Below, piece by piece: positions 8,090 through 57,736 of a stretch of DNA of 64,000 bases. This stretch comes from Candidatus Nanoarchaeia archaeon. Lineage in GTDB: Archaea > Nanobdellota > Nanobdellia > Woesearchaeales > ARS49. The notes below the pieces were generated by a model. The model searched no databases and was not told the origin of the DNA. It saw nothing but the letters and a program-made list of their open reading frames with translations. The number at the start of each line of letters is the position of its first letter. Positions within the stretch are counted from its first letter, which is position 1. The translations under genes were made by a program, and so were the position numbers. Location of the stretch: NCBI GenBank assembly GCA_041489925.1, contig JBGPSD010000002.1, forward strand, positions 55,449 through 119,448, written 5' to 3'.

Positions 8090-8178
8090 AGCCTCCGACG
8101 GGAGTTGCACCCGCGACCTCAGCCTTTTTGCTGCGATTGCATACCAAGGCTGCGCAATAGCTACTATGCTACGGAGGC
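8090..8178 (-). tRNA. tRNA-Thr(GGU)-like gene with a ~16-nt intron in the anticodon loop; T-loop atypical (TGCAACT)
   Basis: Reverse complement folds as acceptor GCCTCCG/CGGAGGC, anticodon stem CAGCC/GGCTG with loop TTGGTA + insert, T-arm GCGGG-TGCAACT-CCCGT, discriminator T. Confidence 0.55.
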
Positions 8179-8792: not shown

Positions 8793-8921
8793 TGCCCGGG
8801 GCCGGAGTCGAACCGGCGAACCCCTACGGGACTGGATTTCTCCAGCGAACCGCCCTGTTTTTTGTTGTGAGGGCGGCGGACATCTTAAGTCCAGCGCGTT
8901 TGGCCACTTCGCTACCCGGGC
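8793..8921 (-). tRNA. tRNA-Leu(UAA) with a ~46-nt intron
   Basis: Reverse complement GCCCGGGTAGCGAAGTGGCC...CTGGA-CTTAAGA-[intron]-TCCAG, long variable arm, T-arm GCCGG-TTCGACT-CCGGC, acceptor 7 bp plus discriminator A; no encoded CCA. Confidence 0.8.
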
Positions 8922-9296: not shown

Positions 9297-9376
9297 ACAC
9301 CCAAAGCAGGGGAACAGGTATATAAAAGTAACTTTTGTGGAAAAGCATTTATACTACCCATCATTCTATGTTCTTC

Positions 9377-9871
9377 ATGAAAAAGGGAGTGGTATTGGCA
9401 ATATTGTTATTGCTGGCAGTGCCTGCTGTTTTTGCAGTTAGCGCAACAGGCTCAACAAGCCAGTGCAAAGTACGCACAGACTGTTACCTGCTTATGCAAA
9501 AAACGCAGGTAACGTGCCCTCAGGGTTATATCCGCAATTACTCGCCTGACTGCGATGCAGGCAAGTGCGAGTTCTGCAAGCCAGCATCAGGAAGAATTAT
9601 CATTGACTGCAGGCTGGACGCGGACTGCACGACAAAGACAAGGTGCACCGCAGGGCTGTTTTCCCGCTGCCTCGGCAGCAAGTGCATCTGCACATCGCAG
9701 GCAAAGCCTGATTGCGTGACTAACAACGACTGCACCAGGAAGTTTTTGGGCAACACGCGCCAGAAGCTCTTCTGCGTGCGCAGCAAGTGCATTACCCCAA
9801 AACCTGCAATTACGATGTTGCCATGGGCTGCAAGGCCGCTGAACTATACAACGGCCATGCCAAGGGCTTAA
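9377..9871 (+). CDS. small secreted cysteine-rich protein with three internal Cys repeats
   Basis: Signal peptide MKKGVVLAILLLLAVPAVFA, then three repeats of DC..(K/T)..C..G....C.G.KC.C; TATA tttatact at 9348..9355. Confidence 0.5.
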   Translation: MKKGVVLAILLLLAVPAVFAVSATGSTSQCKVRTDCYLLMQKTQVTCPQGYIRNYSPDCDAGKCEFCKPASGRIIIDCRLDADCTTKTRCTAGLFSRCLGSKCICTSQAKPDCVTNNDCTRKFLGNTRQKLFCVRSKCITPKPAITMLPWAARPLNYTTAMPRA

Positions 9872-9921: not shown

Positions 9922-11802
9922 TTACTGCGTTATCAGCACTTCAACATCCCTGCCGAAGATTTTCTTGAGCGACTCAAAGACAGGCTCCCTGATGAAAACC
10001 TTTGGTGGTATTGCTATCTTTGCCAGCGCTTTCTCGTATTCCTCCCAGGAGCTTGGCTCAAGCGGTCCAAGAGAGCCGTCGCGGTTTATCGCAGCCTTCT
10101 CAATGACCTTTTCAGGCGCGTCAAGGTTCCTGACAACAAATGCTATGCTGCCAAGCAGGGTGACTTCTCCGAACTTTTCACCTATCTTGACCCTGACTTT
10201 TGTCTGCTCAAGCTCGCGTCCGCGCTTGCGCTGCAAATACTCAACCATGAACTTGACAAGCTCAGAAGCGCTCTTGCGCGCCTGCTCAATGTCAGTCTTG
10301 GTCAGCTTGCCTGCGTCATACGCCTTCTTTGCGGCTATGAAGTCATTAAACAGCCTGAGGAATTTTGCAGGAACCTTGCCTGTTGAGATGAGCTTGTCCT
10401 CAAAAGTGCTGATAAGCTCTGCCTCCTCCACCTTTTCCTCTCCCTCTGACCTCAGCACGTCGCGGGTTACCGTCGTGAGGGTCTCGTAGATGTTGAGTAT
10501 TGTCTCTTCCTCCTTGTTCTTCTCAATCTGGCCGAAGAGCTTTTTGAGGCGCTTCATGTACTTTTCAGAGTCATCAACCAGCTTGTCAAGCTCTTTTCCT
10601 GTGACTTCCTTCTTTACGCCGTGCTCAATGTCCTTCCTTGTCTGGATGACATTCTCAAGCATCTTGACGTATTCCTCTTCAAGGAGCCTTTCTTTTTTCA
10701 CAAAAATCTCCCTGAGGACTTCGCAGGTTTCCTTTGGCGCAGGCGGCGGGACTCCGTAGAGCATAAGCGCTGCCTGTGTCGGTGTGAGGATGCTCCAGAA
10801 GAAATCCTCTGTCGCGATGTCCTTAAACTTGAACTTGATGCGCTCAAGCCCCTGCTCCCCTGTGCTCATGTACATGTCAATCGCTTCAGGCGACGGCTTG
10901 ATTTTGCCCATCTTCAGAAGCTGCTTCCATGGCATGAAGATTCCGCGGTCAAAGAACGGCACTCCGTCGCGGAGGAAGGTGAACATAACCGGGTTCGCCT
11001 CCCTTATCGCGTCCCAGAAGTCTGTCAAAATGTAGGTTTGGATGTTTATCTTGTTCTTGATTCCGGTTATGTCGCCGGCGTCCATTCCCATGTTTATGAT
11101 TATCGCGCGGAGCTTGTCCTTAAGTTCGGCGCGCGTCATCTTCTTGACGTCTGTGTCATCTATTACTATGAAGACGTCAATGTCGCTTTCCTTTGTTGCC
11201 CTTCCTGTGACAATGCTTCCTGCGAGCACGTATGCAACAATGTATTTCTCAAACTTTTTCAGGACCATTGTCTTGTGGATTTCTGCAATCTTTATCGCGC
11301 CGAGCATTCCTGTGTCATAGACTGGCGCTGACATTGCTATCAATTGCAGCCAGTCATACTTTGCGTCATAGCAGTTCTGCCACAATTCAGTCAGGAGCAG
11401 TGTCTGCGGGACTATTGACGGGTCAATGTCCTTTGCAGTGCTGTCCATTATTGCGGTGAGCTTGTCCTTGAGCTCCTGCTTGGACATTTTTGACGGTTCT
11501 GTGTCATCAATCAGTACGAGAACATGATGCTTGTCCTTGATTTGCGCAAAGCGCTTCTGCTCTTCTGCAAGGATTTCCGGAGGCAGTTCTGCAGGAGGAG
11601 CCTTTGGCGGAGGCATCAGTGCGATTCCGACGATGTATTTGTCAAACTTTTCAACTGTTGATTTTTGGAACTTCTCGAGCTTTGCCTTCAGCTGCGCGAG
11701 TTTTTCGCGGACTTCAGGCGGCAGGCTTGCGTCCTGCGGCTGCTCTTCCTGTTTTGGTGCTTTCTTGTCTTCCTTTTTGTCTTTCTTTGCCATGATAATC
11801 AT
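9922..11802 (-). CDS. pseudo-dimeric nucleotidyltransferase (Pol-beta superfamily), 626 aa: degenerate N-terminal copy plus catalytic copy plus helical C-terminal region
   Basis: Internal duplication KFDKYIVGIAL...VLVLIDDTEPSKMSKQELKDKLTAI versus KFEKYIVAYVLAGSIVTGRATKESDIDVFIVIDDTDVKKMTRAELKDKLRAI. The second copy has the hGS-x10-DhD NTase signature. Start overlaps the upstream gene stop (ATGA). Confidence 0.65.
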   Translation of the reverse strand: MIIMAKKDKKEDKKAPKQEEQPQDASLPPEVREKLAQLKAKLEKFQKSTVEKFDKYIVGIALMPPPKAPPAELPPEILAEEQKRFAQIKDKHHVLVLIDDTEPSKMSKQELKDKLTAIMDSTAKDIDPSIVPQTLLLTELWQNCYDAKYDWLQLIAMSAPVYDTGMLGAIKIAEIHKTMVLKKFEKYIVAYVLAGSIVTGRATKESDIDVFIVIDDTDVKKMTRAELKDKLRAIIINMGMDAGDITGIKNKINIQTYILTDFWDAIREANPVMFTFLRDGVPFFDRGIFMPWKQLLKMGKIKPSPEAIDMYMSTGEQGLERIKFKFKDIATEDFFWSILTPTQAALMLYGVPPPAPKETCEVLREIFVKKERLLEEEYVKMLENVIQTRKDIEHGVKKEVTGKELDKLVDDSEKYMKRLKKLFGQIEKNKEEETILNIYETLTTVTRDVLRSEGEEKVEEAELISTFEDKLISTGKVPAKFLRLFNDFIAAKKAYDAGKLTKTDIEQARKSASELVKFMVEYLQRKRGRELEQTKVRVKIGEKFGEVTLLGSIAFVVRNLDAPEKVIEKAAINRDGSLGPLEPSSWEEYEKALAKIAIPPKVFIREPVFESLKKIFGRDVEVLITQ

Positions 11803-12629
11803 GCCTCCACTAAGATTGGTTGTTCTGTGATTGTAAGCATTCCTTTTGCGAGCTGGACAAACGTTTCAAATGCGCTCGTTCCTGCCATTATTATCCTCTG
11901 CACAAAGTCAAATGCTATGTCGTGCAGCCCGTTGTTCGCGGGCTCAGGAAGGATGTTTTTACCGATTCCTGCGATGTTCCTCTCCCTTATCGTTTCCATC
12001 CACGCGAGTGAGAATGCGAATGCCTTTGCCTCCTCGTCGTGGGCGTTCTTCAGTGTTTTTGTAAGCACGTGGCCTATTTCGTGGCCGATTGTGAGCATCA
12101 GTTTGTCAAGCTGGTCTGCCCTTGCGAAAACCTGGCTTGCGCCCCTGCCGTTTGAGTTCAGGCTGAATCCCTGTATTCCCTCGCTCCATGAGCCGCTTGT
12201 TGACGCGTGCGCCTTCCTGAATTCCCGGTCATTAAGGACTTGCACAATGATGTCCTTTGGCAGCTCCTCGCCTGTTGTCGCCCTGAAAGCATCCTGTATG
12301 TATTCCTGTATTTCTGCAGCGTCGCCGACAAACCTTGCAGTGCTTCCTGCCTTGAGGAAAGTGTCTGCGACAAAGTAATTTCCTGGTGTGTGCAGGCTCA
12401 GGTAAGCCCCTTTTGCAGAGCTTGGAACATACTGCGGCAGTGCCATTGCTGGCTTCCCAACTGATTCGTGGCTCACTATGCTGTCAATTGAGGAGTGCGC
12501 ATACATTTGCTCTTTTGGGAAATATGACTGCTGGGCTCCTGAGTAGCTGCCTCCGTAAGAAGCAGCGCTCTGGCCGTAGCTGCTTGCGCCAGAGCTTCCA
12601 TATCCGCACGAGGAACCGCAGTAGCTCAT
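11799..12629 (-). CDS. HExxH zinc metallopeptidase (ImmA/IrrE-like motif context) with a Gly/Ser/Tyr-rich low-complexity N-terminus
   Basis: N-terminus MSYCGSSCGYGSSGASSYGQSAASYGGSYSG...; core ...KLMLTIGHEIGHVLTK...E. Confidence 0.6.
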   Translation of the reverse strand: MSYCGSSCGYGSSGASSYGQSAASYGGSYSGAQQSYFPKEQMYAHSSIDSIVSHESVGKPAMALPQYVPSSAKGAYLSLHTPGNYFVADTFLKAGSTARFVGDAAEIQEYIQDAFRATTGEELPKDIIVQVLNDREFRKAHASTSGSWSEGIQGFSLNSNGRGASQVFARADQLDKLMLTIGHEIGHVLTKTLKNAHDEEAKAFAFSLAWMETIRERNIAGIGKNILPEPANNGLHDIAFDFVQRIIMAGTSAFETFVQLAKGMLTITEQPILVEA

Positions 12630-12633
12630 TTTA

Positions 12634-12885
12634 CTACTTTACCTTTTCCTCCAATGGTTTCTTTGCTGATGCCTTCTTGGCTTCTGCCTCGAGGTCAACG
12701 CCAAGCTCTTTCAATGCCTTGACGTGCATCTGCATCAACTGCTCAACTATTGCGAGAAGCCTTCCGAGCTCCTGCCTCTCTTTTGCGAGAGTTGTCAGCG
12801 CTCCCTTGTGGAAGCCGACCTGTTCTGGTGAACTTTCAGTTTTCTTTGCCATTTTATTACCTCCTATGTATGACATTAAAGTCAC
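12634..12885 (-). CDS. small coiled-coil protein
   Basis: 83 aa, K/E-rich helical; lies 4 nt upstream of the metallopeptidase gene on the same strand. Confidence 0.4.
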   Translation of the reverse strand: MTLMSYIGGNKMAKKTESSPEQVGFHKGALTTLAKERQELGRLLAIVEQLMQMHVKALKELGVDLEAEAKKASAKKPLEEKVK

Positions 12886-12994
12886 ACTGCAGTGTAATAC
12901 GTGAATACAGAATATAAAGTTAATGGGACAAAAAAGTCATATTTGCTGATGTTACTACTGAATAGAAGCGAAAGTTTTATATTCTGCGGACAGT

Positions 12995-13513
12995 ATGTTT
13001 ATAAGTGTGAGAAACATGACAATTTGCGTGGCAAACACGGTGTGCAGTACATTGGAAAGTTGCGTGTATGAGCGGCTTGCAAAGGAGATGGGTATTGACT
13101 CTTTTGACGAAGCGCCTTCTGCATCTGTGCCAAGGGCGCGTTCAGGCAGCAACGGTCGTGAAAAGCTTGAGTTCCTTGTGGATGCATCAGGTGCTGAGCA
13201 TTTGCGAATTAGCTCGTGTGGCGAGGCGCCGAAGCCATACTTGATTCTTACGGGAATGACGCCTTCTCCATCACAATATCGTTTGACTGTTTATGTGCCA
13301 AGTGATGCGTTCTCCGAATTTGAGGCAAAACACAGCAATCATCGGGAACATTCAAATCCGCTCCACAATCGCATTGCAGGCGGAATAAGCAATGCCTTGT
13401 ATCTCAGGACATTTCTCCTGAATCCTGATGCTCATTTTGATTTCCCTGTTGCACGTGAAGAACTTGGGCTAGTTGATGCAGAACTCGCAAGGAATTATTT
13501 AATTGATTCCTAG
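12995..13513 (+). CDS. hypothetical protein
   Basis: 172-aa ORF convergent with the next gene; no motifs. Confidence 0.35.
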   Translation: MFISVRNMTICVANTVCSTLESCVYERLAKEMGIDSFDEAPSASVPRARSGSNGREKLEFLVDASGAEHLRISSCGEAPKPYLILTGMTPSPSQYRLTVYVPSDAFSEFEAKHSNHREHSNPLHNRIAGGISNALYLRTFLLNPDAHFDFPVAREELGLVDAELARNYLIDS

Positions 13514-14206
13514 TTCCTGGTGTTTGCCAATAATTGCAAAGACCCCTTTCTTGCCGTCCCAGGAAAACACAATCCTGTGGTCGCCAATAGGTGATGGCAA
13601 ATATGCATGAAGATATCCCTTCCATGCTCCCGTGAGAATTCTGTCTGTGACTCCTTTCACAAAAAGGCGGTTCTGCCCGACATAAATTCTGATTTTTTTT
13701 TCGATTCTGTCTATAATTTTGCTGTTTTGGGCATACACAGGCACAGACGCTTTTAATTCGAGGTACTTTTTTGTGTACTCAAATGGCGGCAGGTTGATTT
13801 CTTTTTTCGGATTCTCCAGGTCATGTATCAGGCTCAGCATTGCTGAAAGGATGTCAAGAAGGTCTTTGACCGGCTGCTTGAACTCGCCCTCGAGAAGTCC
13901 GCGCCAGGTTTCCGGGTCCTTGATAAACTCCTCATCACTTAACCCCTCCAAATTCTGTTTTGCAATATGCATCATGTTTGAAAAAATTGAAAGGAAGGAG
14001 TTCCATGAGGCAACAAACGCCTTTGTCTTGTCGGCGTTTACTGCTTCAAATACATCAGTTTTCTCCGAAATCTCCTCCTGCAGCGCATTCACTGTTTTCC
14101 GAACGAATTCAAAGGATTTTTTTGCATCTCTTATTTGCCCGTGGAGGAGGTATTTGTAGAAGTCTTCCAATCCTTTTTTGCAGGCATTCAATTTTTCTTC
14201 AATCAT
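13499..14206 (-). CDS. protein with a C-terminal RelE/ParE-like toxin domain fused to an unknown ~140-aa N-terminal domain
   Basis: C-terminus ...ILTGAWKGYLHAYLPSPIGDHRIVFSWDGKKGVFAIIGKHQELG matches the RelE/ParE core (DYRIIY...VLRIGHR pattern). Confidence 0.55.
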   Translation of the reverse strand: MIEEKLNACKKGLEDFYKYLLHGQIRDAKKSFEFVRKTVNALQEEISEKTDVFEAVNADKTKAFVASWNSFLSIFSNMMHIAKQNLEGLSDEEFIKDPETWRGLLEGEFKQPVKDLLDILSAMLSLIHDLENPKKEINLPPFEYTKKYLELKASVPVYAQNSKIIDRIEKKIRIYVGQNRLFVKGVTDRILTGAWKGYLHAYLPSPIGDHRIVFSWDGKKGVFAIIGKHQELGIN

Positions 14207-14256
14207 TCCTGCAGTAACATATTGTGTGTTAAAAAATGTTGTGGTTATTGTCGTTT

Positions 14257-15027
14257 TCAGAAGTCTATTCCGAGCTGCACAGCGCCCAGTATTACGTCAA
14301 TTTTTCCTTTTTCGCCGCCGAGCTCAACATTGTACTTTTCAACTCCGCCCATTACTCCGACGCGCAGCCCTTCTGTGATGGGGAAATCCACTCCGATTGT
14401 CCCTCTTTTGCCAAATCCCTTCCAGGAATATCTCTGTACTGGGCTCAGTTCAGAATACCTGTCGTGGCCTGATTCAAAGTCAAAGCCTCCGTATGGCATT
14501 CCTGCCTCTGCCCTGATTCTTAGGTCTCCGAGGTTTGCCTCTGCTATGATTGTTGGAATTATTGTGAACCATGTTGGTCTTAAATCAGAATACACAAATG
14601 AGCCGTCCTGCGGGGCTCTTTTGTCAGAGCTTTGCTGTTCACCCTGAAAAATTCCCTCTCTTTCTTTTGACGCGTGCAATGGGTTTATTCTCGCGTCAAG
14701 ACCTGCCCCAACTCTGAGCTCAGGGGTTCCAACTGACATCCCTGCGCCGCCCCTTACTGGAATGTCCCATCCTCTTTTAACTTCTGCTTTTGTTTCGCCT
14801 GAGAGGAACCAGTCATCAGGGTGCACAGGTGTTGTTTGTATTTTGTTGCCGAGCTTTGCGCGGTATTGCATGTATTCCATTCCGCCGCGAAGCTCACTCT
14901 CTACGTAAAATCCCTCCTTGTGCGCTTCCTCGCCCTGCTTGTAGTATCCTGCGCAGCCTGCAAGCGTGGCAGCTCCTGCGATTATTGCCGAATGCAAAAA
15001 GTTCCTGCAGATTTTGTCAAGTTTCAT
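14257..15027 (-). CDS. lipoprotein with an outer-membrane beta-barrel-like composition, ending in Phe
   Basis: Lipobox AGAATLAGC; alternating hydrophobic/polar pattern, Gly/aromatic-rich; C-terminal ...GAVQLGIDF. Confidence 0.5.
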   Translation of the reverse strand: MKLDKICRNFLHSAIIAGAATLAGCAGYYKQGEEAHKEGFYVESELRGGMEYMQYRAKLGNKIQTTPVHPDDWFLSGETKAEVKRGWDIPVRGGAGMSVGTPELRVGAGLDARINPLHASKEREGIFQGEQQSSDKRAPQDGSFVYSDLRPTWFTIIPTIIAEANLGDLRIRAEAGMPYGGFDFESGHDRYSELSPVQRYSWKGFGKRGTIGVDFPITEGLRVGVMGGVEKYNVELGGEKGKIDVILGAVQLGIDF

Positions 15028-15089
15028 GAAAGACAGGGATGTATTCTGGGTTTATACGCGTGTGTTGCAGCAGTCCAGACAACGCCAGC

Positions 15090-15097
15090 TTTATAAG
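15090..15097 (+). promoter_or_regulatory. TATA box (tttataag) about 26 bp upstream of 15119
   Basis: Correct spacing to the ATG of a transcript that would be leaderless or have a short leader. Confidence 0.4.
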
Positions 15098-15118
15098 CAT
15101 AGAACCATATTATCTGAT

Positions 15119-15730
15119 ATGGGGAAAATCCTCAAAAGGCTTGCCTGGAGATGGAACAACCTGACATTTAGGGAATTCTTTGACAGCTATTCTCCTGGGG
15201 ACATCTGGCTTCCTGACATGAACCTGAGCAAGTATGACGAACTTGTCAGGAACAGCATCAAGCCTGACATCTGCCCAAAAGAAGGCAATCCTTTTGTTCT
15301 GATAAAGCCCAGCGGGATGTCTCTTGAGAAGGAGATAAAGAAGGTTATTTCCTTCAATGGAATCAAAATCGCAGAAGAGCAGGACATTTCTGACTATGTC
15401 CGGCTTGCGGCGAGCATTTACAGGTTCAAGCCAAGGCAGGGCAAGGATATCCCGCAGAATTATTTCTGGCTCGCATTTGAGGACATGAAAATGAGCCACA
15501 GGACAAAATGCCTTGTTCTTGACAAGGAGACTGTTAACCTGTCAAATCCGCACGACTTCAAGATTCCTCTCAGGCACGTCCTTGGTCCTATCAAGTTTTA
15601 CAGGATTCATTATTACGGTCAGAGCGATGTTGCTTTTGCCTCATTTGTGCACGTTCCTGACAAGCAGGACCTTGACAGGGAGTATTCTGTGCTGAAGAAT
15701 TACCTTGAGGTGCAGAATGCAAAACATTGA
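15119..15730 (+). CDS. hypothetical protein (partner of the downstream radical SAM enzyme)
   Basis: Start set after the convergent upstream gene and behind the TATA box; overlaps the radical SAM start by 14 nt. Confidence 0.45.
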   Translation: MGKILKRLAWRWNNLTFREFFDSYSPGDIWLPDMNLSKYDELVRNSIKPDICPKEGNPFVLIKPSGMSLEKEIKKVISFNGIKIAEEQDISDYVRLAASIYRFKPRQGKDIPQNYFWLAFEDMKMSHRTKCLVLDKETVNLSNPHDFKIPLRHVLGPIKFYRIHYYGQSDVAFASFVHVPDKQDLDREYSVLKNYLEVQNAKH

Positions 15731-16766
15731 GGCACTGCACGCTTACAGCATAAACAATGCCCGCGCAGAAAAGCTTGCAAAATGCTTTTTGGAAAAAGTG
15801 CCTGCTTATGACGTTACCGGCAGGGGTGTTCTTTTCCTGACCGAGAGGTGCAATTTCAACTGCCTTTACTGCAAAAGGGCGCAGTACACCCAGCGCGATT
15901 TTGGCATTGATGAGGCAAAACAGGTTGTTGGCAGGCTTGCTGATTTCAAGTGCAAATACCTGCACCTGACTGGTGGCGAGGTGACAATATTTGACGGGCT
16001 TGATGAGATTGTCGCGACAGCGCAGGAGAGGGGAATGACCAGTTCGCTGTCAACAAATGGCACAGGAAGCCCTGAATTGTACAAGAAACTGGTTGAGAAC
16101 GGCGCAAAATTCTTTTACGTGACTCTTAACACCGACAATCAGTCAGAATGCGACCAGATGACCGGGAGAAAAAACACTTTTGAGCAGATTGTTGAAACAG
16201 TCGGCGGGCTTGTGGGCATGCGCGATGCAGGAAAGGGCGTTTACCTGACAATCAATGTTGTTGTGTGCGACAATAATATCTCGCGCATTGAGGATATTGC
16301 GAATTTTGTTTCAGGTCTTCGCCCTGATGATTTCAAGCTGATTCCAACAACAAGGTTGATGCACTCAATGACTGATGAGCAAAAGGCAAAAATAACGCAT
16401 CTTGCCGAGAAAAGCGGCGCCTTGAGGGAAAAATACAACTTTTTCAATTACCGCCTTGGGCATTTTGCAACAATGCGCGGCTTGAAGGACAAAAAGTATG
16501 CCGGAACAAGGTGCTATATCTGCATGGATGAGCGCGTTTATGGTCCTGAGCATTATTGGCCCTGTGATATTTATTTCAGGGAAAAAGGAAAACCATTGGG
16601 CAGGAGGTCTGAAAGCCTTGCTGCGCAGGCAGACCAGGCATTTGAATTCGCAATCAGGCGCAATCCCTCAGAAGACCCAATATGCAGGGAGTTCTGCTGT
16701 GACATAACAAGGGACTTTAACCTCGCAGTGCACGAAATGGTTAATGCGGGAATCAGGCAACCTTAA
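15717..16766 (+). CDS. radical SAM protein of unknown specificity with a Cys-rich C-terminal extension
   Basis: CNFNCLYC (CxxxCxxC) at the N-terminus, GGE motif (LTGGEVTIF), C-terminal CYICMDE...PCDIYF...CREFCCD. Confidence 0.75.
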   Translation: MQNIEALHAYSINNARAEKLAKCFLEKVPAYDVTGRGVLFLTERCNFNCLYCKRAQYTQRDFGIDEAKQVVGRLADFKCKYLHLTGGEVTIFDGLDEIVATAQERGMTSSLSTNGTGSPELYKKLVENGAKFFYVTLNTDNQSECDQMTGRKNTFEQIVETVGGLVGMRDAGKGVYLTINVVVCDNNISRIEDIANFVSGLRPDDFKLIPTTRLMHSMTDEQKAKITHLAEKSGALREKYNFFNYRLGHFATMRGLKDKKYAGTRCYICMDERVYGPEHYWPCDIYFREKGKPLGRRSESLAAQADQAFEFAIRRNPSEDPICREFCCDITRDFNLAVHEMVNAGIRQP

Positions 16767-17253
16767 ACTGCCTGCCGATTATGTTGCCTTCGCGCTCCCT
16801 ATCAAACAAAACTTCGCTGTTTTCAATAAGATAGACCTGCCTTATCTTTGCTTCCAGTATCTCGTCCCAGCACCAATTGCAGCACCACCAGTGGCCCCAC
16901 AGGTAAAGGTCTGCATTTTCAGGATTGTGCCCGCTTTCTTTTGCATTTCTTATTCCCCTGAATTCGCTGTGGTTCTTCGGGTGGCATCCCTCGCACAATT
17001 CATAGCCATGACCGGTAGGTATTTTCAGCTTTTTTCTCTCGCACCCGTTTTTCTCGTGATAGTCTGTCCCATTTGCTCCACACCCAATTATTTCACTGCC
17101 TTTCACAATCACGGTTCCTGTGGAATGGACCTTGTCAAGCGACTCAAGCCTTGCGAATTCCATTGCCACCCTGATATAGAAATTGCTTGTAGGGACATAT
17201 TCAATTGTCCTGCCTTCAGGGATGTATGGGTAATCTATTTTTTTGGTATTCAC
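16753..17253 (-). CDS. dCMP / cytidine deaminase family zinc-dependent deaminase
   Basis: H(A/S)E motif (HSEFRGIRNA) and a downstream Cys pair (WCCNWCWDEI). Confidence 0.7.
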   Translation of the reverse strand: MNTKKIDYPYIPEGRTIEYVPTSNFYIRVAMEFARLESLDKVHSTGTVIVKGSEIIGCGANGTDYHEKNGCERKKLKIPTGHGYELCEGCHPKNHSEFRGIRNAKESGHNPENADLYLWGHWWCCNWCWDEILEAKIRQVYLIENSEVLFDREREGNIIGRQFKVA

Positions 17254-25505: not shown

Positions 25506-28500
25506 TTAAGTTGTGGCGGTGCCTGTTGGGCAACATCTCTGGCCGTTCGTGCAGTCTGTTGGACCTAAATCTTCAATTGGGCAAGTATCTTGGCAGGTCC
25601 CGTATCCTTTACACGTTGTCGTTCCTGCTGGTGTCGAGCTCTTCACCTGATTTATCGTTGCAGTGTACATGCTCTGTGCTTCTTTGAGCTTTGCCGTGAC
25701 ATTGAGTATCTTTTCGTTTGCAAGATCAACGTCAAATTGGCTGCTTTTGTTCATGTCAATCATTGTTTGCTTTACTCCGCCGACATAGTTGCTGACTGCC
25801 TGCATTGCTGTTTGCGCGTCTGTAAACATTGCTTTGTTTGCAGGGTCTGAAAGCATCCCTATCTGGCGGCTGAATTCTGTTATTGCAGCATCATTGCCTG
25901 TCTTGAGAGCGTCCATCTGGACAATGTAGCCGCTGACACGCGCTGCAACTTTTGTCCTGTCGCCTGATTCTGACGCGGGTATTTCAACAAGCCGTTCATT
26001 ATAATTGTTAATAGTTTTAACCTGCATTTCAAGGAAGTAAGCCAGCGATGGAAGCAAAGTAGTATCTTTTGCGCTGATAACAACAGGCTTCTTGCAGCAG
26101 GTGCTTGGGCAGTCAGATGAGCCTGTAATGACGCCTTCCTTGCAGTCGCTCTGCTTTTCCTTGCATTCGCCATTCAGGTCTGCGCAGGCTTTCTTTACCT
26201 GCGCCGGAGTTGTGCACTGCACCTTGAAGTTCACAGATGTTTGCTGCTGCGCCCCATTTTCAGGGTCTGTGCTGACCTGGTTTGTGGGATTGCCCTGCCT
26301 GTCTGCGTCATAGATTGTGAATAGCGCGGTCCAGGTAACAGGTGTGTTTGGATTGCATGCCTGCGTTGCTGCTGCAGCGGATTTTGGCGGCGCGTAAGTC
26401 ACAAGCACCTGCAGTGCCTGAACCTGGAACACCATCCTGTCAAACTCAATTACTCCTGCGACATCATTCCTTCCTGACTTGAATGTGAATGGCGCTGTGT
26501 TTTTCAGCTGGCCAGCTGTCTGCTTGCCCGAGTATATCGGGGTGCTGCCGACTTTAAAGCTAAGCCAGCCGTCTCTTGCGTTTGGCTCGGGGTTTGTGGC
26601 TGCAGGGTTTATCTGCCAAATCTCATAGGTTGATTCTGCAGGGTTTGCACCGTAATTGGGGAAGTTGATGAGGAACTTGTATGTGCCTTGCGATAGTGCT
26701 CCGCCTTCCATCAGGGTCATTGTTGTGACATACGGCTTCAAGGTGTCAACTCCCCAGGTCCTTTGCTGGATTCCTGTCCTTGAAGGCCCTGTTGCCGAAT
26801 GCCTCTTTATAGTGTCCTCGTTGACCTCGAATTTGGCAAGCGGAGAGAAGTCAGTCTCTCCATTAGGCACTGTAAACCTGAAAACTCCGTTAGTGCTGAG
26901 TGTGTATTTCTGGCTCGTGTCTTCGTTTGATGTCTGCAATGGCATCTGCCTTTCATCTGTGAGCAGCCCGTCAACAACATTGCCTGCTGCGTCCTTTATC
27001 TGGTATGTGAGGAACTTCTTTCCAATATTCTGCGACCTCCTGTCTTCAGGGTATGCCTGCTGGAGCTCAAGGCTGAATTTGAGCGGGTCTTTGAGTGCGA
27101 AAACATCCTGCTTTTCAGGATAGACTGGATTTGCGGTCCGTATCCTGATTCCGTTTTCCTGCTCGCCGAACATGCACCTGAACTTTCCGCTGAACGCTTC
27201 AAGCGCGCAGAATGCAGGCGCCTGGCCGCTCAGTGTCTCGCGGATTGAGCAGTCCACCTGGCCTGTGCGCGACTGCCTTGTTGTTGAGTCTGTCCAGTCC
27301 CATGAAAGCACAGCAGTGTCATATCTGTAGCCTGCTGAGTCATAAGCTGTCTGCGGGCTTACAACAAATGGTGAGTCAAAGTTGACCATATCATACTTCT
27401 TTGCCATTCCGTTGCCAAGCTCTGGAGTGCTGACAGGCAGTTCCTGTGTCTTTGCCTGGCAGTCGCACTTGCCGTCAGGGTTTGTCCTTGGGTCGCAGCT
27501 GAATCCAGCGCTGCATTTGAGTGTGAGCCTGTATCTTACGTCCGCGCCTGCAATCAGTCCGCCTGCAATCCTGTATGCCCAGGTTGTGAGTCCTGTCGGG
27601 CTTGTTGTCGGGTCATAGCTGATGAATGTGCGCTCGCAGGTTGTCAATGCCCCTTCTGTGTCAAGCGGGATTTCATTTACCTGCTGCTGGAACAATCCCT
27701 GCATGTTAAGGTCCCATGTGCCTGTGAATGCCCAGATGCAGATTGCGTGGACAAGCTTTCTCTCGCTGAATAGTGATTGGAATGGTCCTGCTGAGCCATA
27801 GCGCTCAGTTACGCTCCTGCTTACTGCTGTTCCTGCGCCTGTGAGCGATCCAAGGACGCTTCCAAAGCCGCCTCCTGCATCCACGCGGCCGCCCACTCCT
27901 GGCGAGTTGAACTTCTGTGTTATGCATGAGATTGCCTCAAATAGCAGGTCGCAGATTGTTCCTGAAAGCTTTGCTGCGCAGAAGCCCTCGCTTCCTTCTC
28001 CTGTCAGTAATATTCTTTGGAAGCAGCCGTAAAACGCGCCAAGCACTGAGCGCCACATTTGCAGGTATCCAACGATTGCAGGCAGGCAGACGCATTCAAT
28101 GCTTCTCAAAAGCCCTGAAGTCGGCCTGACAATATACTGTTGTTCAGACACTCCCACGATTTCATTCACTGAGTTGTATGCTGCCCTTATGTTGCCGTCT
28201 TTCTGGCAGGGGTCAATTCCGTAGCCTGATTTTGTTTTTCCGAGGCACAGTGCAGTGTGCAGGCATTCAACACCGGTGTCTTCTGTTGATTTCTCAGTTG
28301 TCTTTGTTTTTGAAGCGCCTGTTGCAGGTGTTTGCCCAAAGCAGTTCGAGACATCTGTTTCCAGAACCGCAGTAAGCCCTTGTGACAGCCTTAACTGCTG
28401 GTCCTTGTTGACTCCTGCCTCTGTCACTGTCATCTTCTCAAATTGAGGAGTCCTTGCGGCATAGCCTGCATACACTTTGTATTGCCTTTCTGCTGCGCCT

Positions 28501-31460: not shown

Positions 31461-33432
31461 ATTCCGGCTGAAGTGTTTCGCGATATTCTCCCTCCATTAC
31501 ATATGACATCATCTTGAGCTTTTGGTCATCTGTGATTGACAATGGCAGGTATTGCACAAGCGGGATAACTGCTGTTGTCTTTCCTGCGATTGTGTCATAA
31601 GGTATCTTGTATGTCTGGACATTGTATCCGCCAACCTGGTTGTCGCGCAGGAACAGCATTGCGTCAATGTCATAATAAGACGTGTCCTGCACGATCTGGA
31701 ATGACTCATTTGTTGTGGGGAAGCCGACAAACTGGTCAAATGTCCTGTTGACAAGGCTTACCTGCACTGAGACGCGCTCATTCTCTGTCAGCGGCCTTGG
31801 TGTTCCCCATGTGTCTGTCTCGCCGTGGTACGGGTGGACAATGTACTTGAGCTGCATGTCCTGCAGTTTTTTCATCGGTATGTCAATCCTGTCAGTGAGC
31901 ATCTGCATTGTGGTTTCAAGGTATCCTTCCTTTTTCGCTGTTATGAACGGGTTTGTGCATCCCCTTGGCAGGTATGTTGCAAGCGCGTACACTCCCTCTT
32001 CTGCCATTGTGCTTCCGAGCTCGCATTCCTGGTCAAAGCACTTGTATGTTATCTGGACATCAGGCATTTCCATCATTATGCCTGTCCCTTCCACAACACC
32101 GAGCGCCCTGATGTCCGCAGGCTTGTCGCCGAATGTTGTGCAGAAGTCAGGCGCTCCAAAGTCCATTGTCTGGAACCTTCTCAGCCCAAATGCAACTCTT
32201 TCAGGCATGTTATGGTTGATTAGCACAGGGAACGCGAACTGGAAAACATATCCCTGCCCATTGAACGCAGTGTCATCCCTTACTGATGCCTTGACGTAAT
32301 AAATTACGTCATAGGTGAAGTGCCACTGGTTTATGCACAGGAAGCGCAGGAACTTGCCAACTCCCTTTCCTGAGTTTGATTTCAATTGCGGGCCGTCGCT
32401 TGGCTGCGCATTTATCTGCATTCCCCACGCAGGCTGGTATTCAAAGCCCACCTTCAGGTCAGTCGGCTTGGCGCCAACGTCATAGAAGAACTTGAAGTAC
32501 TGGTATGCGTCATCAGGTGCCTCTGTCTTTGGCGGTGTTATTTCCTGTCCTTGCTCAAGCTCTTTTGTCATACGCAAATAATCCTTGTGCAAAGTTTCGT
32601 ATGTGCTTTGGCTTGCTGTGAACGGGAAAAAGTTCGTGTTCTTGATTCTTGTTGTCGGAATGTTATAGTATAACAGCTGTTCAAGCCTGCTCTGCACGTC
32701 TGTGATGCGCCAGTGCTTTGTTCCGCACTCAATTGTCAATCCGTCCAGCGGGATGTTTTCGCTGTCTGCAGCCATGAGGTCAATCGTGGCATTTTCAAAG
32801 TATGTGAACTCGTTTTCCTTTGCCATTGTTGCATTGGCAAGCTCCCACATCTGCTTCAGGCGCACAGGCATCCTGAATACAAAGTCCTTGATTCGCTTTG
32901 TGCCTTCTGTGCCACCAAAGGAGAGCGCCAATGGCCAGGAGATTCTCAAAATCACACTGTCATCTGCTATCATTGTTGTTGTGCTGACATTGCCTTCCTC
33001 GGTTATACTCATCCTGTCCTTGAAAGGCTCAAAGCTTCCTGCGCAGTCCTTTAATCCTGAGTTGATGTGCCTTGAGATTTCCCTTTCCATGAAGCCAAGG
33101 CTTGGAGTCCTGTCCTCGCCTTCGTAATACCACAAAGGCACCTTGAAGTAATTTTCAGAGTCTATCGGGATGTATGCAGTCGGCGTGCGCTCAATTATTC
33201 CAGGCAGCTGTATGAATCCTCCCTGCAGTCCTAACAATCCAATTCCTTCCATCGCAAGGCTATTGACACAGCTCTGGACATAGTCATACACAGGCTTGAC
33301 ATCCTCAGGGACAATCACTTCTTCCTCAATCGGCTTGACAGCCCTTTCAGTGGTCAGGTAAACAACTATTCCAACGCTGACAAGCAGTATCAGCCCTATT
33401 ATTATGAACAGTGTTATCTGCCCTCTTTTCAT
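31453..33432 (-). CDS. large pilin-like protein with a class III signal peptide (659 aa), module 2
   Basis: MKRGQITLFIIIGLILLVSVGIVVY: KRG then Q at +1, the EppA-type pilin signature; paralog of 38768..40927. Confidence 0.65.
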   Translation of the reverse strand: MKRGQITLFIIIGLILLVSVGIVVYLTTERAVKPIEEEVIVPEDVKPVYDYVQSCVNSLAMEGIGLLGLQGGFIQLPGIIERTPTAYIPIDSENYFKVPLWYYEGEDRTPSLGFMEREISRHINSGLKDCAGSFEPFKDRMSITEEGNVSTTTMIADDSVILRISWPLALSFGGTEGTKRIKDFVFRMPVRLKQMWELANATMAKENEFTYFENATIDLMAADSENIPLDGLTIECGTKHWRITDVQSRLEQLLYYNIPTTRIKNTNFFPFTASQSTYETLHKDYLRMTKELEQGQEITPPKTEAPDDAYQYFKFFYDVGAKPTDLKVGFEYQPAWGMQINAQPSDGPQLKSNSGKGVGKFLRFLCINQWHFTYDVIYYVKASVRDDTAFNGQGYVFQFAFPVLINHNMPERVAFGLRRFQTMDFGAPDFCTTFGDKPADIRALGVVEGTGIMMEMPDVQITYKCFDQECELGSTMAEEGVYALATYLPRGCTNPFITAKKEGYLETTMQMLTDRIDIPMKKLQDMQLKYIVHPYHGETDTWGTPRPLTENERVSVQVSLVNRTFDQFVGFPTTNESFQIVQDTSYYDIDAMLFLRDNQVGGYNVQTYKIPYDTIAGKTTAVIPLVQYLPLSITDDQKLKMMSYVMEGEYRETLQPEFE

Positions 33433-34310
33433 GCTATTTTCCTCAATATATTTCTCATATATATTCTATACCATGCCATGAATGCGAAAAAGATTATGAA
33501 TGCAGTTGCAAGCATCAGGTTTCCTGAAACTATAAGCAATACCTGGCTTAACAGCACATAGACAATAAAAATATAGCAGTATGGAATCACAAATGCCTTG
33601 AACTTTCCTATGCCTGTGCTGAATGCCTCTGCCATTGCCTTTCCAAATGCGCGGTTCTTTGTGTAAGAATAATGCAGTGCTGCTGTGAGATGGGTGTAAA
33701 GCAGCATCATCGCGATGAAAACATAAGCAGCGGGTTTTGTGCTCATTGATACCACGAAAAACATTCCGAGCACAATCCACGCAGTGCACCAGGCAAGGTT
33801 GAGCAGGCTGAATCTCGCAAAGAACGGCAAGTGCACAGGCTTGTTAAGCAAAGTGAGCCAGATGAACCCTCTTGAGATGGTGTATGCGACGAGTATCAGC
33901 AGCCAGAATGCAATTAATACGATTATTGCCTTTGTGAAAAACGCGCCAAGTATGTTGTTATACATCTCAAGGTTTTCAGCGCCCAGCTTTGCGCCTGCTG
34001 CGACAGGGATTTGGCTCAGCGGCTGCACAACAGCCATAAGCACGCGGTACAATGCGTATCCTAACAGCGCGATTGCAACGCAGAACACTGCGTCATAGAA
34101 CATCACCCATGCAAATTCTGTTTTCAGCTTGAATGTTTCCAGCAAATTCTTGAATTGCTTTTTCGAATGTTCCTTTGGCGCGAGCAAAAGGATTAATCCA
34201 ATGATTGCGAGCAATGCTATCTGCGCAAATCCTGTTTTTTTGTAAATCAGGATTCCTGCGATTATTAAAATTAGTCCGATTATCCGCGGTATTGTTACCA
34301 GCTGTTTCAT
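33429..34310 (-). CDS. polytopic membrane protein (module 1)
   Basis: Eight or nine TM helices; 4-nt overlaps on both sides. Confidence 0.55.
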   Translation of the reverse strand: MKQLVTIPRIIGLILIIAGILIYKKTGFAQIALLAIIGLILLLAPKEHSKKQFKNLLETFKLKTEFAWVMFYDAVFCVAIALLGYALYRVLMAVVQPLSQIPVAAGAKLGAENLEMYNNILGAFFTKAIIVLIAFWLLILVAYTISRGFIWLTLLNKPVHLPFFARFSLLNLAWCTAWIVLGMFFVVSMSTKPAAYVFIAMMLLYTHLTAALHYSYTKNRAFGKAMAEAFSTGIGKFKAFVIPYCYIFIVYVLLSQVLLIVSGNLMLATAFIIFFAFMAWYRIYMRNILRKIA

Positions 34311-57620: not shown

Positions 57621-57652
57621 GACTGAATAAGAGAATTCTACTGTAGTTATTT

Positions 57653-57736
57653 GCGCCGGTGCCGGAGTGGCCAAACGGGCAAGCTTCAGGAGCTTGTGGC
57701 TTAGTGCCTACGCAGGTTCGAATCCTGTCCGGCGCA
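57653..57736 (+). tRNA. tRNA-Leu(CAG), no intron
   Basis: Acceptor GCGCCGG/CCGGCGC, anticodon arm CAAGC-TTCAGGA-GCTTG, 16-nt variable arm, T-arm GCAGG-TTCGAAT-CCTGT, discriminator A. Confidence 0.8.

What the first reader, a model, noticed from the sequence alone, without database searches (positions are those of the whole stretch)
9922..12885. Three-gene operon: coiled-coil protein, HExxH metallopeptidase with prion-like G/S/Y N-terminus, and pseudo-dimeric nucleotidyltransferase
The genes are tightly coupled (4-nt spacer, then an ATGA overlap). The 626-aa protein is an internal tandem duplication of a minimal Pol-beta-type NTase unit. Copy 1 has lost the GS...DxD catalytic residues; copy 2 retains hG-S-x10-D-I-D and is followed by a long helical domain. 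The partner has an HEIGH...E zinc-protease core in a context resembling ImmA/IrrE (COG2856) peptidases, preceded by a ~45-aa Gly/Ser/Tyr low-complexity segment. NTase plus regulatory-protease pairings recur in conflict systems (signal-generating NTases, ImmA/IrrE-controlled modules, MNT-type toxin-antitoxin systems). This particular architecture is not one I recognise as described.
Basis: partly seen in the sequence, partly recalled or inferred. Interest (0 to 1): 0.7.

Follow-up and report, generated by a model that had tools for sequence, protein, structure and literature searches.

The report
Archaeal tandem nucleotidyltransferase-HEPN gene with protease neighbour
Three tightly packed genes of a tiny-celled archaeon (Woesearchaeota) encode lineage-specific proteins kept in hundreds of species, one of which looks like a toxin-antitoxin pair fused, doubled and domesticated into a core enzyme, so this is not the mobile defence system first suspected, and its target is still unknown.

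Summary
Three minus-strand genes are tightly coupled: p1 (72 aa), p2 (276 aa) and p3 (623-626 aa). p3 holds a true internal duplication. Copy 1 of the nucleotidyltransferase (NTase) is dead. Copy 2 keeps G195-S196-x10-D207-I-D209, invariant in 81 orthologs.

New here: the "long helical domain" is also duplicated. It is a HEPN domain with a near-invariant RKDIEH motif, then a degenerate HEPN copy, then a small alpha/beta domain. p3 is therefore NT'-NT-HEPN-HEPN'-C, a single chain with the parts of an (MNT)2(HEPN)2 assembly.

p2 is a zincin-fold HEIGH...EE protein with a disordered Gly/Ser/Tyr tail. It does not meet any test for ImmA/IrrE. p1 is an orphan helical protein.

The conflict-system reading is not supported. 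p3 is in at least 565 species genomes of Woesearchaeota/Nanoarchaeia. It is absent from viral, phage and plasmid collections. It lies in a syntenic core region and is the most conserved protein there.

The three-gene order is clade-specific. Elsewhere the genes are apart, and a CBS protein is p3's commonest neighbour.

Best reading: a domesticated MNT/HEPN-derived nucleotidyltransferase, substrate unknown, possibly functionally linked to p2. New variant of a known kind; moderate interest.

The parts
12911..12918 (-). TATA-box-like TTTATATT, 59-66 nt upstream of the p1 ATG; candidate archaeal promoter of the cluster
   Evidence: Read directly from the sequence. Function is inferred and was not tested. 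The sigma-70 scanner does not apply to archaea.
12634..12852 (-). p1: 72-aa helical protein (MAKK...). The ORF as reported extends to a GTG at 12885.
   Evidence: GGAGG at 12864-12860 lies 7 nt before the ATG. Of 72 positions, 29 are invariant across 39 sequences. There are 2868 homologs, named only from Woesearchaeota-type archaea. No hit in Pfam, NCBIfam, PADLOC or PDB is significant.
12378..12629 (-). p2 N-terminal tail (aa 1-84): Gly/Ser/Tyr-rich and disordered
   Evidence: The first 45 aa are 60% G+S+Y, and the first 37 aa have no charged residue. pLDDT is below 50. Length varies from 36 to 171 aa among 91 homologs, while the compositional bias is kept. Tyrosines persist in the high-GC homolog of L148, where Gly/Ser are replaced by Ala/Pro.
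11802..12377 (-). p2 folded domain (aa 85-276): zincin-fold metalloprotein. HEIGH is at 12069-12083; E199-E200 are at 12030-12035.
11293..11718 (-). p3 NT' (aa 29-170): degenerate first nucleotidyltransferase unit (leading helix plus NTase fold)
   Evidence: hhalign against the second unit gives 99.4% probability, E=5e-21. P64-P65 replace G-S and there is no DxD.
10909..11292 (-). p3 NT (aa 171-298): active-looking MNT-type nucleotidyltransferase. GS-x10-DID is at 11176-11220.
   Evidence: Pfam NTP_transf_2 E=3e-07 and Polbeta E=9e-07. NCBIfam MntA 1.4e-05 and ANT(9) 1.3e-05, both below the curated cut-offs. G195, S196, D207, D209, D215, D216, T217 and D218 are invariant in 81 orthologs. This is the most conserved stretch of the protein.
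10558..10905 (-). p3 HEPN (aa 300-415) with the R389-K-D-I-E-H394 motif at 10621-10638
10201..10557 (-). p3 HEPN' (aa 416-534): degenerate second HEPN-like helical bundle
   Evidence: hhalign against the HEPN unit gives 96.6% probability, E=5.6e-10. A reversed-sequence control gives 2.7%. The position equivalent to RKDIEH reads A-K-K-(D)-Y. K492 is kept in 77/81 and Y495 in 67/81 orthologs.
9925..10200 (-). p3 C-terminal alpha/beta domain (aa 535-626), unassigned

Best explanation
The three genes are lineage-specific and vertically inherited in Woesearchaeota (DPANN; Nanoarchaeia in GTDB). In one clade they are co-transcribed in the order p1-p2-p3. They are not a mobile defence or toxin-antitoxin module.

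Shown:
- p3 is a single chain built as NT'(dead)-NT(live)-HEPN(RKDIEH)-HEPN'(degenerate)-C-terminal domain.
- It therefore holds the parts of an (MNT)2(HEPN)2 assembly fused into one polypeptide.
- One catalytic NTase site and one Rx4H site are under strong purifying selection.

Inferred mechanism:
- Like its nearest characterised relatives (MntA, GlnE, DrrA, ANT enzymes), the live NTase transfers an NMP, probably AMP, onto a hydroxyl group of a substrate.
- The HEPN/HEPN' pseudo-dimer holds that substrate.
- The substrate is probably macromolecular, either a protein tyrosine or an RNA end.
- The frequent CBS-protein neighbour may couple the activity to adenine-nucleotide levels.

p2 is an orphan gluzincin-type metalloprotein (HEIGH...EE) with a disordered, tyrosine-rich tail. 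p1 is a highly conserved helical protein. In this clade both are made from the same transcript as p3 and probably act in the same process, as target, regulator or partner. The nature of that link is not shown.
For: Architecture:
- NT'/NT duplication.
- HEPN/HEPN' duplication, with a reversed-sequence control.
- AlphaFold model of p3: mean pLDDT 89.8.

Selection:
- G195, S196, D207, D209 and D215-D218 are invariant in 81 orthologs. R389 is kept in 78/81 and H394 in 80/81.
- Between the window and its closest relative L006, p3 is about 90% identical. p2 is 74%, and the flanking proteins are 60-80%.

Core rather than mobile:
- More than 4756 full-length homologs.
- At least 565 species genomes, the top 80 nearly all titled Woesearchaeota or Nanoarchaeota/Nanoarchaeia, or generic/placeholder names (one is titled Aminicenantes bacterium).
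- Distant relatives are also named Woesearchaeota or Nanoarchaeia.
- No relatives in IMG/VR, phages or plasmids.
- The flanks are collinear with L006 and L067.
- No PADLOC hit in 9 of 10 neighbours. The tenth is a generic radical-SAM match.

Link of p2 to p3:
- p1-p2-p3 order in essentially every member of two p3 sub-clades that make up one part of the tree.
- The p2-to-p3 gap is between -25 and +87 nt in all but one of 25 loci (L067 was scored only as overlapping).
- One-unit relatives of p3 (274-285 aa) lie next to p2: divergently in L144 and upstream on the same strand in L148. A third relative lies about 2 kb away in L139.

CBS link:
- A CBS-pair protein lies downstream on the same strand in 36 of 80 loci.
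- A CBS protein is also found divergently beside a distant 550-aa relative.

Protein-directed hint:
- Some relatives carry N-terminal TPR arrays of about 750 aa.
Against: - No experiment, and no homolog of known function closer than generic MNT/HEPN domains.
- The substrate is unknown.
- The tyrosine that MntA AMPylates, next to the Rx4-6H motif, is absent. The residues after H394 are G395 and then a variable position.
- A single Rx4H in a pseudo-dimer may be inactive as an RNase.
- Retention of Rx4H is unusual for fused, domesticated MNT-HEPN proteins according to PMC3710099. That leaves an RNase or toxin-like activity possible.
- The link to p1-p2 is clade-specific. In 46 of 70 genome loci neither gene is within 5 kb of p3. 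In L086, p2 has no p3 nearby and no detectable p1 either.
- One distant relative sits among RNA-modification genes instead.
Confidence: 0.5

Rival explanations
1. RNA-directed enzyme. The conserved Rx4H HEPN site binds or cuts an RNA (tRNA, rRNA or mRNA), and the adjacent NTase adds nucleotides to the RNA end. On this reading p3 is a housekeeping RNA processing, tailing or repair factor of Woesearchaeota. p1 and p2 are unrelated, or are accessory factors.
For: - R389 and H394 are near-invariant. K390 and E393 are invariant.
- Most HEPN domains that keep Rx4-6H are RNases, according to PMC3710099.
- p3 has a Lys-rich disordered N-terminus (MAKKDKKEDKKAPK).
- A distant 539-aa relative lies 3 nt upstream of an RsmB/F RNA methyltransferase and a Nip7-like PUA protein. 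Pelota and GatCAB are nearby.
Against: - Only one of the two HEPN units keeps R and H. Known HEPN RNases use two such motifs across a dimer interface (established knowledge of the family).
- The MNT clade that matches p3 by sequence (MntA, ANT, DrrA) modifies protein or small-molecule hydroxyls, not RNA.
- No RNA-binding domain was detected.
- The RNA-gene neighbourhood was seen in a single locus.
- p2 has the peptidase-type HExxH...E motif, not the His triad of YbeY.
Confidence: 0.2
2. Conflict system. p3 is a fused type VII-like toxin-antitoxin or defence effector: a HEPN RNase held in check by its own NTase. Its expression or activity is controlled by an ImmA/IrrE-like protease (p2) and a small repressor-like protein (p1).
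For: - A fused MNT-HEPN protein that keeps the RNase motif is a working toxin-antitoxin module in Shewanella (FhepTA, PMC13000451).
- The NTase matches PADLOC candidate PDC-S09 at E about 1e-05.
- The HEIGH...DEEAKAFAF motif of p2 recalls the M78 motif (from memory). M78 is among the sub-threshold Pfam matches, 8 of 91 members.
- A 3.9-kb strain-specific insertion lies directly upstream of the cluster in this window.
Against: - Near-universal, full-length orthologs at 57-94% identity in at least 565 species genomes of one lineage.
- None in viral, phage or plasmid collections.
- Collinear core flanks, with p3 the most conserved protein of the region.
- The tyrosine next to the RNase motif is absent.
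- p2 fails every M78 membership test that was run.
- p1 has no significant HTH match.
- The three genes are separate in most lineages.
- No defence genes were found among 10 neighbours.
Confidence: 0.1
3. No functional link. p1, p2 and p3 are three independent conserved genes. Their adjacency in this clade is inherited gene order and has no mechanistic meaning.
For: - Adjacency is confined to part of the p3 tree.
- In 46 of 70 genome loci, p1 and p2 are not within 5 kb of p3.
- p3 follows p2 in only 16 of 59 p2-anchored loci, and p1 precedes p2 in only 16 of 65.
- Elsewhere p2 pairs with other genes: a roughly 200-aa Cys-rich protein in 16 loci and a PAC2-type proteasome assembly chaperone in 10 loci.
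Against: - The order is kept in every member of the clade across p3 divergence down to about 60% identity, while the flanking genes differ.
- The intergenic gaps are operon-like.
- p2 is independently juxtaposed with one-unit relatives of p3 in two further arrangements, L144 and L148.
Confidence: 0.2

Closest known systems
Type VII toxin-antitoxin HepT/MntA and its fused form FhepTA (PMC7641770, PMC13000451)
   Same: - An MNT-type NTase with GS-x10-DxD and a HEPN domain with an R-x4-H motif lie side by side.
- Sequence: MntA matches at 1.4e-05 in NCBIfam and 3.6e-04 in the PDB.
- One-unit relatives of p3 (268-285 aa) have the size and layout of FhepTA, which is 276 aa.
   Different: - Both units are duplicated in one chain, and one copy of each is degenerate.
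- p3 has an extra C-terminal domain and a Lys-rich N-terminal tail.
- The tyrosine next to the RNase motif, which MntA AMPylates, is absent.
- The second motif residue is Lys, not hydrophobic as in the R-phi-xxx-H motif.
- p3 is not on mobile elements. It is a vertically inherited gene of a whole archaeal order.
Domesticated NTase plus HEPN-like helical-domain enzymes: kanamycin/ANT nucleotidyltransferases and glutamine synthetase adenylyltransferase GlnE
   Same: - The NTase is followed by a helical, HEPN-related substrate-binding domain.
- GlnE also has two tandem NTase units.
- PMC3710099 describes these enzymes as domesticated MNT-HEPN modules.
   Different: - p3 scores far below the family cut-offs: ANT(9) gives 24.6 bits against a cut-off of 340.
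- The domain order is NT-NT-HEPN-HEPN, not (NT-helical)x2.
- p3 keeps the Rx4H motif, which such fused proteins usually lack.
ImmA/IrrE (Peptidase_M78, COG2856) proteases with their repressor substrates (ImmR, DdrO, CapH)
   Same: - HExxH with a downstream acidic motif (HEIGH...DEEAKAFAF).
- A small gene lies immediately upstream.
- It is adjacent to an NTase gene, as CapP/CapH are in CBASS.
   Different: - No p2 homolog reaches the M78 threshold.
- No sequence hit to any solved IrrE, PprI or CapP structure.
- p1 shows no significant HTH match.
- p2 carries a disordered Gly/Ser/Tyr tail not known from that family.
Generic zincin/gluzincin metallopeptidase fold (thermolysin-like HExxH+E; minimal zincins such as SprT/Wss1; YbeY-like fold)
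   Same: - Invariant H183, E184, H187, and E199/E200 located 12-13 residues after the second His.
- The mixed alpha/beta zincin core is modelled with high confidence.
   Different: - No Pfam, NCBIfam or PDB sequence match.
- The family is found only in Woesearchaeota-type archaea.
- Its N-terminal low-complexity tail is unusual.

Membership tests
Type VII TA HepT/MntA (including fused FhepTA) | MNT nucleotidyltransferase motif hG[GS]-x9-13-Dh[DE] | tested here: met
   G195-S196-x10-D207-I-D209 is invariant in 81 orthologs. Pfam NTP_transf_2 scores 31.2 bits against a cut-off of 21.
Type VII TA HepT/MntA (including fused FhepTA) | HEPN domain with an Rx4-6H motif | tested here: met
Type VII TA HepT/MntA (including fused FhepTA) | Tyrosine adjacent to the RNase motif that is (oligo)AMPylated by MNT (PMC13000451, PMC7641770) | tested here: not met
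   H394 is followed by G395 and then a variable position (K/T/E/V); there is no Tyr.
Type VII TA HepT/MntA (including fused FhepTA) | Patchy, mobile-element-associated distribution typical of TA modules | tested here: not met
   At least 565 species genomes of one lineage carry p3. No hits in IMG/VR, phages or plasmids. The flanks are collinear with relatives.
Type VII TA HepT/MntA (including fused FhepTA) | HEPN part is toxic and is neutralised by the NTase | not testable with these tools
   Needs expression experiments.
ImmA/IrrE, Peptidase_M78 (COG2856) | Match to the family model at or above its threshold | tested here: not met
   The window protein has no M78 hit at E<=1. Among 91 homologs, 8 match only sub-threshold, best E=0.019.
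ImmA/IrrE, Peptidase_M78 (COG2856) | HExxH plus a downstream Glu ligand in an E-x-EA-x-FA-like motif | tested here: inconclusive
   HEIGH and DEEAKAFAF are invariant. However, the spacing to the Glu is 12-13 residues. The comparison with the M78 motif rests on memory, not on an alignment made here.
ImmA/IrrE, Peptidase_M78 (COG2856) | Closest structural neighbours are IrrE/PprI/CapP | tested here: not met
ImmA/IrrE, Peptidase_M78 (COG2856) | Partner is an HTH repressor that the protease cleaves | tested here: not met
   p1 gives only HTH_11 at E=0.11 and the BirA N-terminus at E=0.03, far below cut-offs. A profile search of the PDB finds no HTH protein. Cleavage itself is not testable here.
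Aminoglycoside/lincosamide nucleotidyltransferases (KNTase, ANT(9), ANT(3''), Lnu) | Match to family models at the curated cut-off | tested here: not met
CD-NTase / CBASS-type signal-generating nucleotidyltransferases | cGAS/DncV-like NTase model match and an adjacent effector | tested here: not met
   PADLOC gives only MNT-type candidates PDC-S09/M05A/M63A at E>=1e-05 and no CD-NTase model. No effector-like or PADLOC-positive neighbour was found.
Housekeeping tRNA/CCA or poly(A) nucleotidyltransferases | Match to CCA-adding or poly(A) polymerase family models | tested here: not met
   Only MTPAP-like_central at E=0.0021, 18.6 bits against a cut-off of 27. No CCA-adding model appears in Pfam or NCBIfam.
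Zincin (HExxH) metalloprotein superfamily (p2) | Invariant HExxH with a third acidic ligand, and the zincin alpha/beta core | tested here: met

The most novel reading that the evidence does not exclude
p3 is a former type VII toxin-antitoxin module (MntA plus HepT) that was fused, doubled and domesticated into an indispensable, vertically inherited regulator of Woesearchaeota. Its natural substrate is the tyrosine-rich, disordered Gly/Ser/Tyr tail of the neighbouring zincin p2 (or the small protein p1). Reversible tyrosine nucleotidylation of a low-complexity tail would then switch a protease on or off, with a CBS protein coupling the switch to cellular adenylate levels. This would be a kind of post-translational circuit not described in archaea.
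Probability: 0.12. Interest if true: 0.75.

Novelty: new variant of a known kind. Interest (0 to 1): 0.45.

Why it matters
DPANN archaea have very small genomes, and many of their conserved genes have no known function. This work shows that one of the best-conserved Woesearchaeal proteins is built from the parts of the most abundant prokaryotic toxin-antitoxin module. Those parts (MNT and HEPN) have been fused and duplicated into one chain, with exactly one live copy of each active site.

If this is confirmed, it would be a clear case of a selfish module turned into a core cellular enzyme. It would also provide a natural single-chain model of the MNT-HEPN assembly.

The neighbouring zincin has a FUS-like Gly/Ser/Tyr tail, an unusual feature for an archaeal enzyme. 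It offers a concrete, testable candidate substrate.

In practical terms, the result warns against calling NTase-HEPN or HExxH neighbours in DPANN genomes defence systems on domain content alone.

Tried and rejected
1. Defence or toxin-antitoxin island. PADLOC on the three proteins and on 10 neighbours gave only generic MNT candidates. One radical-SAM protein hit pVip, but NCBIfam shows this hit to be generic: MoaA matches as well as viperin, and all matches are far below cut-off.

2. Mobile-element origin. No p3 relative was found in IMG/VR, plasmids or phages.

4. p1 as an HTH repressor. There was no significant match in Pfam, NCBIfam or a PDB profile search. The weak CCT-theta hits (E about 0.02) are noise.

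5. "p1-p2 is an obligate pair." I held this view. The p2-anchored metagenome loci refuted it: p1 is upstream in only 16 of 65, and some loci have the order p2-x-p1.

6. The gene upstream of a TPR-fused p3 relative as a p2 homolog. It is not (E=82).

7. The M50 peptidase beside a distant p3 relative as a p2 relative. They share only the HExxH residues (14.7% probability).

8. Structure search against afdb50. The library was not available.

9. The C-terminal domain of p3 and the whole of p1 remain unassigned.

Full report
**1. What is in the sequence**

Three ORFs lie head to tail on the minus strand:
- 12885..12634 (83 aa, GTG start)
- 12629..11799 (276 aa)
- 11802..9922 (626 aa)

The junctions read ...GTAAAGTAG-TAAA-ATGAGC... 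and ...GGAGGCATGATTATCATGGCAAAG.... The 4-nt spacer and the formal ATGA overlap are therefore real.

- p1 starts at the ATG at 12852 (MAKK..., 72 aa). GGAGG lies 7 nt upstream. Most of the 38 aligned homologs begin at that position; a few carry longer called N-termini.
- p3 probably starts at its second ATG, 11793. M4 is at least 90% conserved. GGAGG at 11808-11804 is 10 nt from it but only 1 nt from the first ATG. The p2-p3 junction is then a 5-nt spacer.

A TATA-like TTTATATT lies 59-66 nt upstream of the p1 ATG.

The window is archaeal. It has intron-containing tRNA genes. All named homologs come from Candidatus Woesearchaeota, Nanoarchaeota or Nanoarchaeia.

**2. The 626-aa protein (p3)**

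Pfam recognises only one NTase domain, at aa 183-246 (NTP_transf_2 E=3e-07, Polbeta E=9e-07).

- BLASTP of aa 47-185 against aa 182-324 gives E=3e-13.
- Profile-profile comparison of aa 50-170 against aa 178-298 gives 99.4% probability, E=5e-21.

Copy 2 keeps G195-S196-x10-D207-I-D209 and a D215-D216-T217-D218 cluster. All are invariant in 81 orthologs. Copy 1 has P64-P65 where G-S should be and has no DxD.

The "long helical domain" resolves into two related units.
- aa 416-534 aligns to that unit with 96.6% probability, E=5.6e-10. A reversed-sequence control gives 2.7%.

HEPN1 carries R389-K-D-I-E-H394. In 81 orthologs R389 is kept in 78, K390 in 81, E393 in 81 and H394 in 80. At the equivalent place HEPN' reads A-K-K-D-Y.

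A 92-aa alpha/beta domain follows. It has no detectable relatives.

p3 is thus NT'-NT-HEPN-HEPN'-C. This is the content of an (MNT)2(HEPN)2 assembly in one chain, with one live copy of each motif.

Simpler relatives exist.
- One-unit NT-HEPN proteins of 268-285 aa.
- Forms of about 540-550 aa that lack NT'.
- Forms of 1100-1340 aa with N-terminal TPR arrays.

**3. The 276-aa protein (p2)**

G182, H183, E184, G186, H187, E199, E200, K202, A203, A205 and F206 are invariant in 91 homologs.

Residues 1-84 are low-complexity.
- The first 45 aa are 60% Gly+Ser+Tyr.
- The first 37 aa have no charged residue.
- The bias is shared by all homologs, although the length ranges from 36 to 171 aa.
- The region is predicted disordered.

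In a high-GC homolog (L148) Gly/Ser are replaced by Ala/Pro, but the tyrosines stay.

Nothing places p2 in a defined family.
- No Pfam or NCBIfam hit.
- No PDB sequence hit, even with a profile.
- No significant Foldseek hit.
- Only sub-threshold M78, M48, SprT and reprolysin matches in a minority of homologs.

It is an orphan HExxH...E (gluzincin-type) family. Membership of ImmA/IrrE is not established.

**4. The small protein (p1)**

p1 is 72 aa. Across 39 sequences, 29 positions are invariant. It is more conserved than p3 in the same genomes: 72-81% identity against about 66%.

The conserved core (GFHKGALTTLAKERQEL..L.IVEQLMQMH.KALKDLGVDLEAEAKKA) has a 3-4 hydrophobic spacing compatible with a coiled coil. 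This is read from the sequence and was not modelled.

No family or structure match is significant.

**5. Distribution and context**

p3 abundance:
- More than 4756 homologs at E<=0.001, and the best 120 listed are near full-length.
- 737 clusters at the 50% identity level.
- None in IMG/VR viral contigs, phage records or plasmids.

The window is collinear with its closest relative L006 on both sides of the cluster. p3 is about 90% identical there, making it the most conserved protein of the region. p2 is 74% and the neighbours 60-80%.

The three-gene order is not universal.
- p1 and p2 precede p3 in 24 of 70 genome loci that have enough upstream sequence, always both together.
- On a p3 tree these loci fill one part of the tree, while the remainder lack the pair, with one exception.
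- In p2-anchored metagenome loci, p3 follows p2 in 16 of 59 and p1 precedes p2 in 16 of 65.
- Other orders occur. p2-x-p1 is seen in 4 loci, p2 with a roughly 200-aa Cys-rich protein in 16, and p2 convergent with a PAC2-type proteasome assembly chaperone in 10.
- In one genome p2 and p3 appear to lie more than 5 kb apart on the same 484-kb contig.

The commonest neighbour of p3 overall is a CBS-pair protein. It lies downstream on the same strand in 36 of 80 loci. It is absent from this window.

Two facts still argue for a link between p2 and this NTase-HEPN family.
- The p2-to-p3 gaps are operon-like, from -25 to +87 nt in all but one of 25 loci, with L067 scored only as overlapping.
- One-unit p3 relatives lie next to p2 in two further arrangements: divergent in L144 and upstream on the same strand in L148.

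**6. How it most likely works**

Shown:
- The architecture of p3.
- Strict conservation of one NTase site and one Rx4H site.
- Lineage-wide vertical-looking distribution.
- Operon-like packing with p1-p2 in one clade.

Inferred: the live NTase transfers an NMP, probably AMP, to a hydroxyl group. The relatives that match by sequence all do this.
- MntA acts on a HepT tyrosine.
- ANT enzymes act on sugar hydroxyls.
- DrrA acts on a Rab tyrosine.
These matches are, and PMC7641770 appears.

PMC3710099 describes fused MNT-HEPN proteins as domesticated modules in which HEPN has become a substrate-binding domain. I take the HEPN/HEPN' pseudo-dimer to be that platform.

The substrate is open.
- TPR-fused relatives and the tyrosine-rich tail of the co-transcribed p2 favour a protein target.
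- The retained Rx4H motif and one RNA-modification neighbourhood favour an RNA target.

The canonical type VII mechanism does not apply as such, because the tyrosine next to the RNase motif is missing.

**7. Comparison with known systems and novelty**

p3 belongs to the MNT and HEPN superfamilies. It fails defining features of type VII toxin-antitoxin modules (target tyrosine, mobility). It also fails those of ANT enzymes (family cut-offs) and of CD-NTases. p2 belongs to the zincin superfamily but fails the ImmA/IrrE tests.

Fused MNT-HEPN proteins are known, for example FhepTA (PMC13000451). So are tandem NTase enzymes such as GlnE. I found no description of the NT'-NT-HEPN-HEPN' layout as a core gene of a whole archaeal order.

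I rate it a new variant of a known kind.

**8. Verdict**

- The conflict-system interpretation is not supported.
- The domain reading and the suspicion of an undescribed architecture are supported.
- Interest is moderate (0.45). The case is a well-defined, strongly conserved domesticated toxin-antitoxin-like enzyme in DPANN archaea, with a concrete testable partner. Its function remains inferred.

Noticed in passing
window 12,900-16,770: A 3.9-kb stretch directly upstream of the cluster is absent from the two closest relatives (L006, L067), whose flanks are otherwise collinear. It carries four ORFs with no family assignment except a radical-SAM protein (15705-16766). The C-terminus of the 235-aa ORF 13499-14206(-) (...GDHRIVFSWDGKKGVFAIIGKHQEL) looks RelE/ParE-like to the eye; this was not tested.
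   Followed up: partly
window 15705-16766 (+): A radical-SAM protein hits PADLOC prokaryotic-viperin models at E=7.8e-20. NCBIfam gives equally good matches to MoaA (1.2e-19), and all matches are far below cut-off. The viperin label is therefore not justified.
   Followed up: yes
window 8090-8178, 8793-8921, 57652-57737: These are three tRNA genes. Two are unusually long (89 and 129 nt), as expected for archaeal introns. ARAGORN missed the 129-nt one, and only Rfam found it.
   Followed up: no
window 25506-40927 (-): A run of very large ORFs (1984, 659, 293, 467, 1036 and 719 aa) has almost no Pfam matches; the only one is a Glucodextran_B fragment in the 1984-aa protein. They may be surface proteins of this DPANN archaeon.
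   Followed up: no
P0299, P0301, P0313, P0318, P0322, P0331, P0342 (relatives of p3); L170 5001-8252: Relatives of p3 of 1100-1340 aa carry an N-terminal TPR array of about 750 aa in front of the NT-HEPN part. The gene upstream of one of them is not a p2 homolog.
   Followed up: partly
L111, L113, L114 (downstream of p2): Tandem arrays of two to six paralogous proteins of about 200 aa follow p2 in L111 and L113, and one copy follows it in L114. They carry their own HExxH motif (AIAHELGHYTHH).
   Followed up: no
L130, L136, L145, L146, L149, L151, L152, L156, L157, L160: In ten metagenome loci p2 is convergent with a PAC2-type proteasome assembly chaperone (TIGR00161 E=1.3e-36, below the curated cut-off). 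This is a possible hint of a protein-turnover context for p2.
   Followed up: partly
L172 4001-7025; L173 3500-6752: Two distant p3 relatives lack the dead first NTase copy. One (539 aa) lies 3 nt upstream of an RsmB/F RNA methyltransferase and a Nip7-like PUA protein. The other (550 aa) lies between a divergent CBS protein and a codirectional M50 peptidase followed by a PRC-barrel protein.
   Followed up: partly
L115, L116, L126, L138, L140: In some lineages the order is p2, then a low-complexity protein of about 123 aa (rich in Tyr, Ser, Ala, Met), then p1 where the contig extends far enough (L116, L126, L138, L140; in L115 and L140 p1 is seen only by tblastn at the contig end). It is as if the low-complexity segment were encoded separately there.
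   Followed up: no
L008, L009, L012 and about 25 other loci: Many contigs with clear Woesearchaeota-type p1-p2-p3 genes carry the record title "uncultured Methanosarcinales archaeon" (binchicken assemblies), and one is titled "Aminicenantes bacterium" (L081). These look like placeholder or wrong taxonomic labels.
   Followed up: no
window 9335-9871 (+): A Cys-rich 178-aa protein with an N-terminal hydrophobic segment lies immediately downstream of p3 on the opposite strand. Its only match is a weak late-nodulin hit at E=0.0018.
   Followed up: no
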